Shown here in pieces: positions 29,430-29,715 of a stretch of 64,000 bases of DNA. The notes beneath the pieces were generated by a model. The model was not told where the DNA came from. It was given only the letters and a program-made list of their open reading frames with translations, and made no database searches. The stretch lies in sequence record PP488543.1. One strand, 5' to 3'. Positions within the stretch are counted from its first letter, which is position 1. Each line of letters opens with the position of its first letter. This stretch comes from Escherichia phage BP9. The translations under genes and the position numbers were made by a program.

Positions 29430-29715
29430 TTTTCGTGTATCATGATGAATATCCAATTTAAAGATGAATTTGATGGCTTTATCTCCGGATGCTTTGAAAC
29501 AGGGTTCGGAGAAGACTGAGTTCCCCTTAGAGGGCTTGATAGTGCACCACACTTAAAATGGTAGGGGGCAGCCAGCACATGACGATGTGACCCCAGCCAA
29601 CCTGTAACAAGGTCGAGCCGAAGCGCGGGTAATAGGCCTCTGGTAACCCACTTGTTGGGTCTTGCTGGTCCAGGACGCTGGACAAGTCGCAGGGAATATC
29701 TCCCTGCGGCGAACT
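29430..29715 (+). other. second GC-rich structured noncoding element
   Basis: About 290 nt without credible ORF; hairpins GTCCAG-GACG-CTGGAC and CGCAGGGA-ATATC-TCCCTGCG; shares ATAGTGCAC(A/C)ACA motif with 27961..28320. Confidence 0.35.

What the first reader, a model, noticed from the sequence alone, without database searches (positions are those of the whole stretch)
29430..29715. Second GC-rich structured element sharing a motif with the first
Another roughly 290-nt ORF-poor GC-rich segment contains a perfect 8-bp hairpin (CGCAGGGA-ATATC-TCCCTGCG) and a 6-bp hairpin, and shares the ATAGTGCAC(A/C)ACA motif with the element at 27961..28320. It ends at a strong promoter. Two related structured elements flanking a small gene block just upstream of the tRNA island suggest a paralogous ncRNA family.
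Basis: seen in the sequence. Interest (0 to 1): 0.55.

Follow-up and report, generated by a model that had tools for sequence, protein, structure and literature searches.

The report
Unclassified folded RNA beside phage tRNAs
The GC-rich segment is a real non-coding RNA gene of an rV5-like coliphage, and its centre is one copy of a highly conserved, pseudoknotted RNA fold that matches no Rfam family and also occurs in T4-like, N4-like and many uncultured phages, usually in or next to their tRNA gene arrays; it is not related to the first GC-rich element.

Summary
In detail: the hairpins, the GC-rich tract, the 9-mer and the strong downstream promoter are all at the stated coordinates. The interpretation, a paralogous family with the element at 27961-28320 (El1), fails. 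The only similarity to El1 is the 9-mer ATAGTGCAC, which is no better than chance. It is not conserved in El1 orthologues, and a covariance model of the El2 core finds nothing in El1.

What is there: an rV5-like phage (100% identical to phage vB_EcoM_YN3) carries a roughly 265-nt non-coding unit between two sigma-70-type promoters. Positions 29565-29644 fold into a stem-loop domain, a three-way junction with about 30 near-invariant junction bases, and a pseudoknot.

The same core occurs in about 460 T4-like phage records (between denV and vs.8), an N4-like Klebsiella phage, ~46-kb phage contigs, and marine, wetland and gut metagenomes. In at least 12 lineages it lies on the same strand in or beside a tRNA array. 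All three junction helices, the 5' domain and the pseudoknot covary. No Rfam 15 family matches, no paper I could search describes it, and no full copy was found in 185,579 bacterial and archaeal genomes.

The function is inferred only. Most likely it is a stable folded RNA that binds a conserved cellular partner; a ribozyme or a riboswitch remain possible.

The parts
29415..29443 (+). Upstream sigma-70-type promoter-like site (TTTACA, 17 nt, TATCAT). The inferred transcription start is near 29450.
   Evidence: 10 of 12 matches. In relatives the -10 hexamer varies only within TATNAT (TATCAT, TATTAT, TATGAT). In the sister lineage a perfect TTGACA-17-TATACT promoter sits directly before the conserved RNA instead. 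The start site itself is inferred, not shown.
29442..29519 (+). Leader region. It contains a possible micro-ORF (MMNIQFKDEFDGF...) and a conserved hairpin at 29482-29512.
   Evidence: AAAGATGAATTTGATGGCTTT (29460-29480) is identical in the sister lineage, where it forms an 8-codon ORF (MKDEFDGF*) behind a strong Shine-Dalgarno sequence. The three substitutions seen in relatives are synonymous (L066: GAA to GAG; L074: GAA to GAG and TTT to TTC). The hairpin TCTCCGGAT...GTTCGGAGA keeps its pairing through a two-sided change in L104 (CTGG/TCAG) that alters the putative peptide.
29520..29563 (+). rV5-lineage-specific 5' module: a small hairpin (29523-29534), then CUUGAUAGUGCAC (contains the 9-mer at 29539-29547), then an AGUG/CACU hairpin and an A-rich linker.
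   Evidence: Nearly invariant between the two rV5-like lineages. A second, degenerate copy (CCCAUAGAGGGCUUGAAAGUGC) follows the core in the sister lineage. Absent from the T4-like, N4-like and other carriers.
29565..29594 (+). 5' domain of the conserved fold. Outer helix GGGG (29565-68) with CCCC (29591-94); internal loop CAGCCAG (29569-75); inner hairpin CACAU-GACG-AUGUG (29576-89).
   Evidence: Both helices are complementary, with different sequences, in 13 representatives. Outer helix: GGGG/CCCC, GGAAC/GUUCC, GCAA/UUGC, GCGU/ACGC, GCGC/GCGC, GGGAA/UUCCC, GGGAG/CUCCC. Inner hairpin: CACAU/AUGUG, CUACG/CGUAG, CAUG/CAUG, CUAUG/CAUAG, CCUCAU/AUGAGG.
29596..29637 (+). Three-way-junction core. 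P1: GCC (29596-98) with GGC (29635-37). P2: ACCU (29600-03) with AGGU (29610-13), capped by a GNRA-like loop GUAACA. Junction CGA (29614-16). P3: GC (29617-18) with GC (29625-26). Junction GGGUAAUA (29627-34).
   Evidence: Covariance model hit at 29587-29653, 58.5 bits, E about 1e-17. Across 79 copies, 8 of 11 pairs change on both sides. The covariation score is 0.275, against 0.093 in shuffles (0 of 500 reach it) and at most 0.083 when the partners are slid.
29571..29644 (+). Pseudoknot: internal-loop bases GCCAG (29571-75) pair with CUGGU (29640-44), just 3' of P1.
   Evidence: Pairings of 5-7 bp with unrelated sequences in 11 of 13 representatives (GCCAG/CUGGU, GUGAGGG/CCCUUAC, UGAGG/CCUCA, GGGUA/UACCC, ACAAGA/UCUUGU, GGGGG/CUCCC). 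The summed helix length is 36, against a maximum of 30 in 1854 re-assignments of tails among clades and 34 in 5000 tail shuffles. It is weak (3 bp) in the T4 type.
29647..29708 (+). Three 3' hairpins specific to the genus: CCCA/UGGG (29647-59), GUCCAG/CUGGAC (29668-83) and CGCAGGGA/UCCCUGCG (29688-29708). No U-tract follows.
   Evidence: The middle hairpin keeps its pairing through two two-sided changes in L074 (GCUCAG/CUGAGC). The first hairpin is partly deleted in L142. None of them appears in the terminator scan.
29715..29743 (+). Strong promoter of the next gene (29772-30110). It marks the 3' boundary of the element.
   Evidence: TTGACA-17-TAAAAT, 11 of 12 matches, extended -10 TG. Conserved in all relatives.

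Best explanation
Positions 29430-29715 are a small non-coding RNA gene of an rV5-like (Vequintavirus) phage.

**Transcription.** The RNA is read on the + strand from a sigma-70-type promoter at 29415-29443 and runs to a hairpin at 29688-29708, just before the strong promoter of the next gene. The start and end points are inferred.

**Fold.** The functional centre (about 29565-29644) is one copy of a widespread phage RNA module that matches no known family. It consists of:
- a 5' stem-loop domain;
- a three-way junction (P1, P2, P3) with about 30 near-invariant junction and loop bases;
- a pseudoknot that ties the internal loop of the 5' domain to the tail after P1.

The fold, its conservation, the transcribed strand and the link to tRNA arrays are shown by the evidence.

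**Function (inferred).** The RNA is probably made early by the host RNA polymerase together with the adjacent tRNA array. It then most likely acts as a stable folded RNA whose invariant junction binds a partner conserved across very different bacteria. That partner could be a component of translation or tRNA metabolism, or a tRNA-directed defence enzyme that the RNA would decoy. Under this reading the RNA does not act as an antisense RNA, as a DNA site or as a coding region.

It is not a paralogue of the GC-rich element at 27961-28320.
For: **Identity of the window.** It is 100% identical to Escherichia phage vB_EcoM_YN3 and 92-98% identical to more than 110 rV5-like phages.

**Distribution of the core.**
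- About 460 T4-like records match it at 86-90% identity, in the denV-vs.8 spacer.
- It also occurs in the N4-like Klebsiella phage KpCHEMY26, in ~46-kb phage contigs, and in marine/saline, TARA ocean, wetland and gut metagenomes.

**Structure.**
- P1, P2 and P3 all covary.
- The 5'-domain helices and the pseudoknot covary.
- G-U pairs (13 at one P1 position alone) fit only the + strand.

**Not coding.** There is no conserved reading frame.

**Own promoter.** A perfect consensus promoter sits directly before the conserved RNA in the sister lineage.

**tRNA context.**
- The motif lies on the same strand in or next to tRNA arrays in the window (tRNAs from 30207) and in L011, L018, L034, L047, L067, L094, L110, L113, L127, L133, L154, L156 and L159.
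- In other Vequintavirinae genera, tRNA genes occupy the position of El2 in front of the same downstream gene.

**No protein partner in cis.** No protein family is shared near the motif across clades, so it works without a linked phage protein.

**Restricted to phages.** No full copy was found in 185,579 bacterial and archaeal genomes.
Against: - No expression data were available. The transcript ends, the stability of the RNA and any processing are all inferred.
- Nothing identifies a binding partner.
- In T4-like phages the motif is always immediately 5' of vs.8, down to 37% protein identity. One T4-like group carries two copies in tandem. Both features are more typical of cis-regulatory aptamers.
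- A compact double-pseudoknot fold with an invariant junction would suit a ribozyme equally well.
- P2 covariation rests on only two sequences, because the search pattern fixed P2.
- The motif is absent from several Vequintavirinae genera, so it is dispensable for that phage group.
Confidence: 0.5

Rival explanations
1. A new class of self-cleaving ribozyme or RNA-processing module. It would cut the polycistronic tRNA or mRNA transcript at or near its own boundary, as HDV-like theta ribozymes are proposed to do next to phage tRNAs.
For: - The fold is compact, with the same strand order as a nested double pseudoknot (outer helix, pseudoknot, inner hairpin, branched domain).
- The junction bases are invariant.
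- The motif is confined to phages and lies in tRNA arrays. In L110 it starts 4 nt after the CCA end of a tRNA.
- Small ribozyme classes are typically phage-associated, and theta ribozymes sit within 5 nt of phage tRNAs (PMC10879173).
Against: - No Rfam ribozyme model matches, even at E up to 10.
- The distance to the nearest tRNA varies from 4 nt to more than 1 kb. In T4-like phages no tRNA lies within several kb.
- The linker where an HDV-like catalytic C would sit is 0-4 nt long and not conserved. There is no P1.1 helix. The conserved part corresponds to the dispensable P4 domain of HDV-like ribozymes.
- About 30 invariant bases is more than known small ribozymes need (own knowledge).
Confidence: 0.2
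2. A riboswitch-like cis-regulatory aptamer. It would sense a small molecule or a tRNA and control the downstream genes (vs.8 in T4-like phages; the arginine-rich protein gene and the tRNAs in rV5-like phages).
For: - It is a three-way junction with invariant junction bases, a GNRA-like loop and a pseudoknot.
- It is always directly 5' of vs.8 in T4-like phages, across 37-100% protein identity.
- One T4-like group has tandem copies (L037:9015-9080 and 9129-9192).
- A conserved leader, AUGYGCCANGGAAUGGCCC, lies between the motif and the true vs.8 start.
Against: - The downstream genes share no function across clades: an ATPase, a small basic protein, tRNAs, or nothing nearby.
- In both rV5-like lineages a strong independent promoter lies between the motif and the next gene.
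- Many copies sit inside tRNA arrays.
- No terminator or Shine-Dalgarno-sequestering partner is conserved. The apparent complements to P2 shift register between clades and are expected by chance (my estimate).
Confidence: 0.13
3. One reading: El2 and the element at 27961-28320 are paralogous members of one ncRNA family that flank a small gene block.
For: - Both are GC-rich, non-coding and hairpin-rich.
- Both contain ATAGTGCAC a few bases after a hairpin.
Against: - The covariance model of the El2 core finds nothing in El1.
- The best El1-El2 local match is the 9-mer alone, and 46% of random windows match El2 as well.
- The 9-mer is not conserved in El1 orthologues.
- The sister lineage has El2 but no El1.
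- The two elements have very different phylogenetic ranges.
Confidence: 0.03
4. A DNA-level element rather than an RNA. Examples would be a mobile promoter/stem-loop cassette that promotes recombination between phages (as proposed for T4-type promoter-early stem-loops), or a protein-binding or origin-associated site.
For: - A 45-bp block is about 88% identical between unrelated phage families while the flanks are unrelated, which suggests horizontal spread as a module.
- El2 ends in a hairpin followed directly by an early-type promoter.
- A candidate replication origin lies 1.7 kb upstream.
Against: - Compensatory changes keep the helices while the sequence changes, and frequent G-U pairs would be A-C mismatches on the other strand.
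- The orientation always matches the neighbouring tRNAs.
- The pseudoknot covaries.

All three points indicate selection on a single-stranded + strand transcript.
Confidence: 0.05

Closest known systems
HDV-like 'theta' ribozymes next to phage tRNAs (Kienbeck et al. 2024, PMC10879173)
   Same: Both are small structured RNAs confined to tailed phages and linked to tRNA genes on the same strand. The order of strands in the nested double pseudoknot is the same (outer helix, pseudoknot, inner hairpin, branched or P4 domain).
   Different: - No HDV-type Rfam model matches.
- There is no P1.1 helix and no conserved C in the linker before the pseudoknot 3' strand. The conserved bases lie in the domain that is dispensable in HDV-like ribozymes.
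- Theta ribozymes lie within 5 nt of a tRNA, in gut phages of Bacteroidota and Bacillota. This motif lies 4 nt to several kb from tRNAs and occurs in enterobacterial, marine and other phages.
T4 small stable RNAs rnaC and rnaD (species 1 and 2) in the T4 tRNA cluster
   Same: Both are non-tRNA stable RNAs of unknown function encoded within a phage tRNA array and co-transcribed with it (annotation; function unknown by own knowledge).
   Different: The covariance model finds no similarity in the T4 rnaC/rnaD region. The T4 copy of this motif lies about 6 kb away, between denV and vs.8.
Pseudo-ToxI RNA of the rV5-like phage PhiTE (Blower et al. 2012, PMC3475682)
   Same: It is a precedent for a non-coding RNA in an rV5-like phage that works as a folded decoy, mimicking an antitoxin RNA to neutralise a host abortive-infection nuclease. 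This is the kind of mechanism I favour here.
   Different: Pseudo-ToxI is an array of 36-nt tandem repeats that ToxN processes into pseudoknots. El2 has no tandem repeats, has a different fold, and is a single copy of about 80 nt.
Three-way-junction riboswitch aptamers (for example the purine, TPP and c-di-GMP-I classes)
   Same: A three-helix junction with invariant junction bases, a tertiary loop contact, occasional tandem arrangement, and a position 5' of a gene in T4-like phages.
   Different: No Rfam riboswitch model matches. The downstream genes are not a coherent set. Many copies lie inside tRNA arrays or behind their own promoter with another promoter following.
Phage antitermination RNAs (lambda nut boxB; HK022 put)
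   Same: They are promoter-proximal structured RNAs in early phage transcripts. P2 (CCU-GUAAUA-AGG) resembles a boxB-type GNRA-like hairpin. The next gene in rV5-like phages encodes a protein with an arginine-rich N-terminus (KKRRRRGRP). The comparison itself is from own knowledge.
   Different: Most carriers (T4-like, N4-like and the others) lack that protein. Several Vequintavirinae genera have the protein but not the motif. There is no boxA-like element. The fold is far more elaborate than nut or put. Nothing here tests antitermination.

Membership tests
Conserved phage three-way-junction/pseudoknot RNA motif (defined here; unnamed) | Full-length match to the covariance model of the core (P1-P2-P3 plus the invariant junctions) | tested here: met
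   Window 29587-29653 on the + strand, 58.5 bits, E about 1e-17. It is the only strong hit in 64 kb. Other first copies score 51-76 bits.
Conserved phage three-way-junction/pseudoknot RNA motif (defined here; unnamed) | Helices supported by compensatory changes | tested here: met
   Eight of 11 pairs change on both sides. Covariation score 0.275 against 0.093 in shuffles (0 of 500 reach it) and at most 0.083 when partners are slid. P2 is supported by only two divergent copies.
Conserved phage three-way-junction/pseudoknot RNA motif (defined here; unnamed) | 5' stem-loop domain whose internal loop pairs with the tail 3' of P1 (pseudoknot) | tested here: met
   Window: GGGG/CCCC, CACAU/AUGUG and GCCAG/CUGGU. 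The family-wide pseudoknot signal exceeds all 1854 permutations and all 5000 shuffles.
   No covariance-model hit in El1. The best local match is 9 nt, E = 0.3, and 89 of 195 random windows equal it.
   It is conserved in El2 relatives. It is changed in El1 of L142 (CCTAGTGCAC) and L139 (ATAGACCGC).
Any Rfam 15 family (4227 covariance models) | Match at the gathering score, or any match with E up to 10 over the element | tested here: not met
   No match over 29430-29715, over the T4 and Bp7 copies, or over the copies in 18 diverse loci. Only the neighbouring tRNAs are found.
HDV-like / theta self-cleaving ribozymes | Nested double-pseudoknot strand order | tested here: met
   The strand order is outer helix 5', pseudoknot 5', inner hairpin, outer helix 3', branched domain, pseudoknot 3'. 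This is a resemblance in topology only.
HDV-like / theta self-cleaving ribozymes | P1.1 mini-helix and a conserved catalytic C in J4/2, with the conserved bases concentrated in L3, P1.1 and J4/2 | tested here: not met
   The linker before the pseudoknot 3' strand is 0-4 nt and variable (CU, AUA, U, UACA, none). Only 0-1 nt lies between the outer helix and P1. The inner loops are ordinary tetraloops (GACG, GAAA, GCAA). Conservation lies in the branched domain instead.
HDV-like / theta self-cleaving ribozymes | Self-cleavage | not testable with these tools
   Needs in vitro transcription and a cleavage assay.
Riboswitch | Aptamer consistently upstream of a functionally coherent set of genes, with an expression platform | tested here: not met
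   The motif is always 5' of vs.8 in T4-like phages. Elsewhere it lies in tRNA arrays, behind its own promoter, or far from any gene. No protein family is shared across clades.
Riboswitch | Ligand binding | not testable with these tools
   Needs in-line probing or ITC.
tRNA or tRNA-like gene | Cloverleaf recognised by ARAGORN or the Rfam tRNA model | tested here: not met
   Neither ARAGORN nor the Rfam tRNA models call a tRNA in 29430-29715. The fold is two successive junctions plus a pseudoknot, not a cloverleaf.
Type III antitoxin mimic (pseudo-ToxI type) | Tandem direct repeats of about 36 nt | tested here: not met
   No tandem repeat in 29400-29760. The only array nearby is the 22-nt x3 repeat at 27760-27824.
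Intrinsic terminator at the 3' hairpin | GC-rich stem followed by a U-tract | tested here: not met
   The hairpin at 29688-29708 is followed by GCGAAC, and the terminator scan does not list it.

The most novel reading that the evidence does not exclude
The motif is a new functional RNA class that unrelated virulent phages, T4 included, carry and exchange as a self-contained module of about 100 nt within their tRNA arrays. It could be an RNA decoy or sponge that neutralises a widely conserved tRNA-directed or translation-directed host defence or host factor, or it could be a new catalytic RNA. Either way it would be an unrecognised, broadly distributed RNA-based function sitting unannotated in the best-studied phage genomes.
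Probability: 0.4. Interest if true: 0.9.

Novelty: categorically new. Interest (0 to 1): 0.72.

Why it matters
- T4, rV5-like and N4-like phages are among the most intensively studied and therapeutically used coliphages, yet this element is unannotated or mis-annotated as small hypothetical ORFs in the records I looked at.
- An RNA of about 80-100 nt with some 30 invariant bases is shared by unrelated phage families from gut, sewage, wetland and marine samples, and no full copy turned up in bacterial genomes. That pattern points to a partner that is conserved in all these hosts, or to an intrinsic chemistry.
- Its recurrent place inside tRNA arrays bears on an open question: what phage tRNA clusters are really for. 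The current candidates are codon supply and evasion of tRNA-cleaving immunity. This RNA offers a concrete new handle on that question.
- It is small enough for immediate biochemical tests (self-cleavage, ligand screens, pull-downs) and for clean genetics in T4.
- The result also corrects the annotation of this window. El2 is an RNA gene, El1 is unrelated to it, and the annotated T4 vs.8 start is probably too far upstream.

Tried and rejected
**Known RNA families.** I searched Rfam at gathering scores over the whole window. I also searched at E up to 10 over the element, the T4 and Bp7 copies, and 18 other loci. Only tRNAs and chance hits came back.

**El1-El2 homology.** Pairwise MAFFT, blastn-short with a random-window control, and a covariance-model search all found no relationship.

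**Protein coding.** The frames switch between relatives.

**A host origin or host target.**
- blastn of El2 against 5,426 E. coli genomes found nothing, although short seed matches would not pass that threshold.
- A pattern scan of 185,579 species genomes gave three weak local hits of at most 27 bits.

**A linked protein partner.**
- An all-against-all comparison of ORFs within 4 kb of the motif in 15 clades found none shared.
- Vs.8 is confined to T4-like phages.

**Similarity to T4 rnaC/rnaD.** None.

**Presence in other Vequintavirinae genera.** PVP-SE1, Mydo, Hena1, PcCB7V and 4MG have no copy near the homologous gene.

**An automatic longest-helix search for the closing pairing over wide windows.** It did not discriminate: 6.13 observed against 5.95 permuted. 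I replaced it with a position-specific parse.

**A 'switch' helix.** Downstream segments complementary to P2 appear in every clade, but their register shifts and a 5-mer complement is expected by chance. I did not use this as evidence.

**Resemblances recalled from memory.** These were the twister loop CCCAAGCCCGGAUAAAAG, the 16S 530-loop GCGGUAAUAC, the 23S GUAAUA loop of helix 44, the RNase P GUGCGGUAA, hammerhead junctions and lambda boxB. None is backed by a model hit, and hammerhead is excluded by the order of its junction strands. I treated them all as leads only.

**Literature.** Seven searches ran, including literal sequence strings (one earlier attempt was rejected by the tool). None found a description. 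The catalogue of 10,006 viral candidate RNAs (PMC10690425) could not be checked because no supplement is held.
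Full report
**1. What the window is.** The 1.9 kb around the finding is 100% identical to Escherichia phage vB_EcoM_YN3 and 92-98% identical to more than 110 rV5-like phages of the genus Vequintavirus. In the annotated relative LL12 the local gene order is as follows:
- an RNA ligase;
- a P-loop protein and a phosphoesterase;
- a small winged-helix gene;
- a 650-bp unannotated gap, which is the first element, El1;
- three small genes;
- the finding, El2;
- one small gene;
- a tRNA array.

ARAGORN and Rfam find the tRNAs from 30207 onward on the + strand.

**2. The observation.** All the described features are present.
- The 8-bp perfect hairpin is at 29688-29695/29701-29708. 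A second hairpin lies within 29665-29686.
- GC content reaches 0.555 at 29500-29699.
- ATAGTGCAC is at 29539-29547 and at 28016-28024.
- A near-consensus promoter, TTGACA-17-TAAAAT with an extended -10 TG, is at 29715-29743.
- The + strand folds better than shuffled sequence (z = -2.34). The - strand does not (z = -1.44).

**3. El2 is not a paralogue of El1.**
- The best local similarity between the two elements is the 9-mer alone (18.3 bits, E = 0.3). Of 195 random 360-nt pieces of the same window, 89 match El2 at least as well.
- In El1 orthologues the 9-mer is not kept: CCTAGTGCAC in L142, ATAGACCGC in L139.
- The third copy, at 8740, lies at a junction between genes on the - strand.
- A sister rV5-like lineage known only from metagenomes (L027, L075-L077, L116, L118) has an El2 equivalent but no detectable El1.
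- El1 is confined to 118 Vequintavirus records.
- A covariance model of the El2 core finds nothing in El1.

**4. The unexpected lead.**
- A sensitive blastn of El2 matched about 460 T4-like phages at 86-90% identity over a 45-nt stretch (window 29593-29636). The match lies in the unannotated spacer between denV and vs.8.
- Pattern scans of IMG/VR, of JGI/ENA metagenomes and of one genome per bacterial species then recovered the same core in other settings:
  - several deep branches of T4-like phages;
  - both rV5-like lineages;
  - ~46-kb phage contigs;
  - saline/marine, TARA ocean, wetland and human-gut contigs.
- blastn of one ~46-kb copy against GenBank phages added the N4-like Klebsiella phage KpCHEMY26 of the family Schitoviridae.
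- The 185,579-species genome scan gave three hits. All are weak and local by the covariance model (at most 27 bits, against 51-76 bits for first copies). The motif therefore appears confined to phages, and apparently to virulent ones.

**5. The core structure.** The consensus is P1 (3-5 bp, sequence variable), A, P2 (ACCU-GURNNA-AGGU), CGA, P3 (GC-loop-GC), GGUAAUG, then the P1 3' strand.
- In a gap-free 70-sequence alignment, the P1 pair at columns 12-49 is C-G 53, U-A 10, G-C 5, A-U 1 and G-U 1, with none unpaired. The pair at columns 11-50 is C-G 47, G-C 16 and A-U 6. The P3 pair at columns 32-39 is C-G 54, U-A 8, G-C 2 and A-U 1.
- The covariance model then found divergent second copies that the search patterns could not have selected. 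These show compensatory changes in P2:
  - GCCU/AGGC in L030;
  - ACCA-GUAA-UGGU in L131, where a plain GNRA tetraloop replaces the hexaloop.
- On the 79-sequence model-based alignment, 8 of 11 pairs change on both sides. The covariation score is 0.275, against 0.093 in shuffles (0 of 500 reach it) and at most 0.083 for slid partners.
- G-U pairs are common (13 at one P1 position), so the folded strand is the + strand, the same strand as the tRNAs.

**6. The wider fold.** I parsed 13 representatives by hand and checked each against the data. All have a stem-loop domain 5' of P1, made of an outer helix and an inner hairpin. Both helices are fully complementary, with seven and five different sequences respectively.
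- The internal loop between the two helices pairs with the tail just 3' of P1 in 11 of the 13. Examples are GCCAG/CUGGU in the window, GUGAGGG/CCCUUAC, UGAGG/CCUCA, GGGUA/UACCC, ACAAGA/UCUUGU and GGGGG/CUCCC.
- The summed helix length is 36. The maximum is 30 in all 1854 re-assignments of tails among clades, and 34 in 5000 tail shuffles.
- In the ~46-kb, N4-like and some other types, the tail instead pairs with sequence 5' of the hairpin to form a closing helix. One example shows a compensatory change: GUUGUGAC/GUCACAAC against GUUGUGAA/UUCACAAC.
- In window coordinates:
  - outer helix 29565-68 with 29591-94;
  - inner hairpin 29576-89;
  - P1 29596-98 with 29635-37;
  - P2 29600-03 with 29610-13;
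  - P3 29617-18 with 29625-26;
  - pseudoknot 29571-75 with 29640-44.

**7. The rest of El2.**
- A promoter-like site (TTTACA-17-TATCAT) at 29415-29443 keeps a TATNAT -10 hexamer in relatives.
- In the sister lineage a perfect TTGACA-17-TATACT promoter sits immediately before the conserved RNA, and another TTGACA promoter follows about 175 nt later. There the element is a self-contained transcription unit.
- The 5' module at 29520-29563, which includes CUUGAUAGUGCAC, is nearly invariant between the two rV5-like lineages and absent elsewhere.
- The leader hairpin (29482-29512) and the 3' hairpin at 29668-83 keep their pairing through two-sided changes.
- No reading frame is conserved across the element.
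- No U-tract follows the last hairpin, so read-through into the next gene is likely. This is inference.

**8. Genomic context.**
- The motif lies on the same strand in or next to a tRNA array in the window and in L011, L018, L034, L047, L067, L094, L110 (4 nt after a tRNA CCA end), L113, L127, L133, L154, L156 and KpCHEMY26.
- In PVP-SE1, Mydo, Hena1, PcCB7V and 4MG, the homologue of the gene just downstream of El2 sits inside the tRNA array, with tRNAs where El2 is in this window. Those phages have no copy of the motif near that gene.
- In T4-like phages the motif is about 6 kb from the tRNA cluster, and rnaC/rnaD are unrelated to it. It is, however, always just 5' of vs.8, a P-loop ATPase, down to 37% protein identity.
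- One T4-like group carries two copies in tandem.
- No protein family is shared near the motif across clades.

**9. What it is not.**
- No Rfam 15 family matches, at gathering scores or at E up to 10, in the window, in T4 and Bp7, or in 18 diverse loci.
- It is not a tRNA.
- It is not a repeat array of the pseudo-ToxI type.
- It is not a canonical terminator.
- Its strand order matches the nested double pseudoknot of HDV-like ribozymes, including the tRNA-linked theta ribozymes (PMC10879173). It nevertheless lacks P1.1 and a conserved J4/2 cytosine, and its conserved bases lie in the domain that is dispensable in that family.
- Seven literature searches, including literal sequence strings, found no description. 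I could not check the unnamed catalogue of 10,006 viral candidate RNAs (PMC10690425).

**10. Mechanism.**
- Shown: a conserved, pseudoknotted, + strand RNA fold; spread across phage families; linkage to tRNA arrays; an own promoter in the rV5-like lineages; and no linked protein.
- Inferred: the RNA is made early with the tRNAs and is stable.
- My preferred reading (confidence about 0.5): the RNA acts through its invariant junction on a partner conserved across very different hosts. The partner could be a component of translation or tRNA metabolism, or a tRNA-directed defence enzyme that the RNA decoys. The antitoxin mimic of the rV5-like phage PhiTE is a conceptual precedent.
- A new self-cleaving or processing RNA (about 0.2) and a riboswitch-like leader (about 0.13, favoured by the vs.8 linkage and the tandem copies) remain open.

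**11. Verdict.** The real finding is larger than the one reported. It is an apparently undescribed RNA family that T4-like, rV5-like, N4-like and many uncultured phages share.

Noticed in passing
window 27338-27950: A candidate replication origin. A small winged-helix gene (27338-27688) matches PHROG 'replication initiation protein' families and Pfam DUF6945/HTH_36. It is followed by three 22-nt iteron-like repeats (TAACTGTCCGTAATACGGACAC, 27760-27824), each containing an inverted repeat GTCCGT...ACGGAC, and then by a stretch of about 32% GC with short A-rich repeats.
   Followed up: partly
window 27955-28327 (El1): The first GC-rich element is conserved (84-96% identity) only within Vequintavirus. 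It contains a nested hairpin (GGCCC..GGCA-CUCGCC-UACGAG-GGCGAG-UGCC..GGGCC) and a highly conserved central block. It is unrelated to El2 and may be a long structured 5' leader of the gene at 28328, or a separate RNA next to the candidate origin.
   Followed up: partly
window 29442-29519; L027:452-478: A possible conserved micro-ORF. AAAGATGAATTTGATGGCTTT encodes KDEFDGF in both rV5-like lineages. In the sister lineage it is an 8-codon ORF (MKDEFDGF*) behind a strong Shine-Dalgarno sequence. The three substitutions seen are synonymous (L066: GAA to GAG; L074: GAA to GAG and TTT to TTC).
   Followed up: partly
window 29772-30110; L160-L164: The gene after El2 encodes a 112-aa protein with an arginine-rich N-terminus (KKRRRRGRP), reminiscent of RNA-binding antiterminator peptides. 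In every Vequintavirinae genus examined, its homologue is embedded inside the tRNA array.
   Followed up: partly
L002:2047-2104 (T4) and equivalents in other T4-like loci: The annotated vs.8 start is probably too far upstream. The PHROG profile begins at MRTFL. The preceding AUGYGCCANGGAAUGGCCC is conserved at the nucleotide level and forms a GCCA/UGGC hairpin. In L008 and L065 it is a separate short ORF closed by a stop codon, so it is either a conserved upstream ORF or part of the RNA.
   Followed up: partly
L037:9015-9080 and 9129-9192; L148:357-422 and 471-534; L030:5191-5256 and 5080-5143; L131:153-216 and 2454-2518: Some phages carry two copies of the motif. In one T4-like group they are in tandem about 50 nt apart, upstream of vs.8. 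In a saline-water phage they are 2.3 kb apart.
   Followed up: yes
window 30803-30901: ARAGORN calls a 99-nt tRNA-like gene with a 4-base anticodon (atcc). LL12 annotates the homologous position as tRNA-Lys with an 'inconsistent isotype' note. It is either an unusual tRNA or a tRNA-like element inside the array.
   Followed up: no
window 25285-27290: An RNA ligase, a P-loop protein (annotated 'ATP-binding protein' in LL12) and a phosphoesterase cluster lie 3-5 kb upstream of the tRNA array. If the P-loop protein is a kinase, which I did not test, this would resemble the T4 Pnkp/Rnl tRNA-repair set. That would fit a tRNA-defence theme for this region.
   Followed up: no
window ~32250-33797: LL12 annotates the homologous terminase large-subunit gene as containing an intron. 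No Rfam group I or group II intron model reached its gathering score anywhere in the window.
   Followed up: no
window 21936-22000: A weak covariance-model hit (13.9 bits, E about 0.04) with AACCU..GGUCAAGC..GGUAAC lies inside overlapping long ORFs. It is probably chance.
   Followed up: partly
L094:140-171: A match to the Rfam abiF RNA above its gathering score (45 bits against 37) lies on the same saline-water phage contig that carries the motif inside its tRNA array.
   Followed up: no
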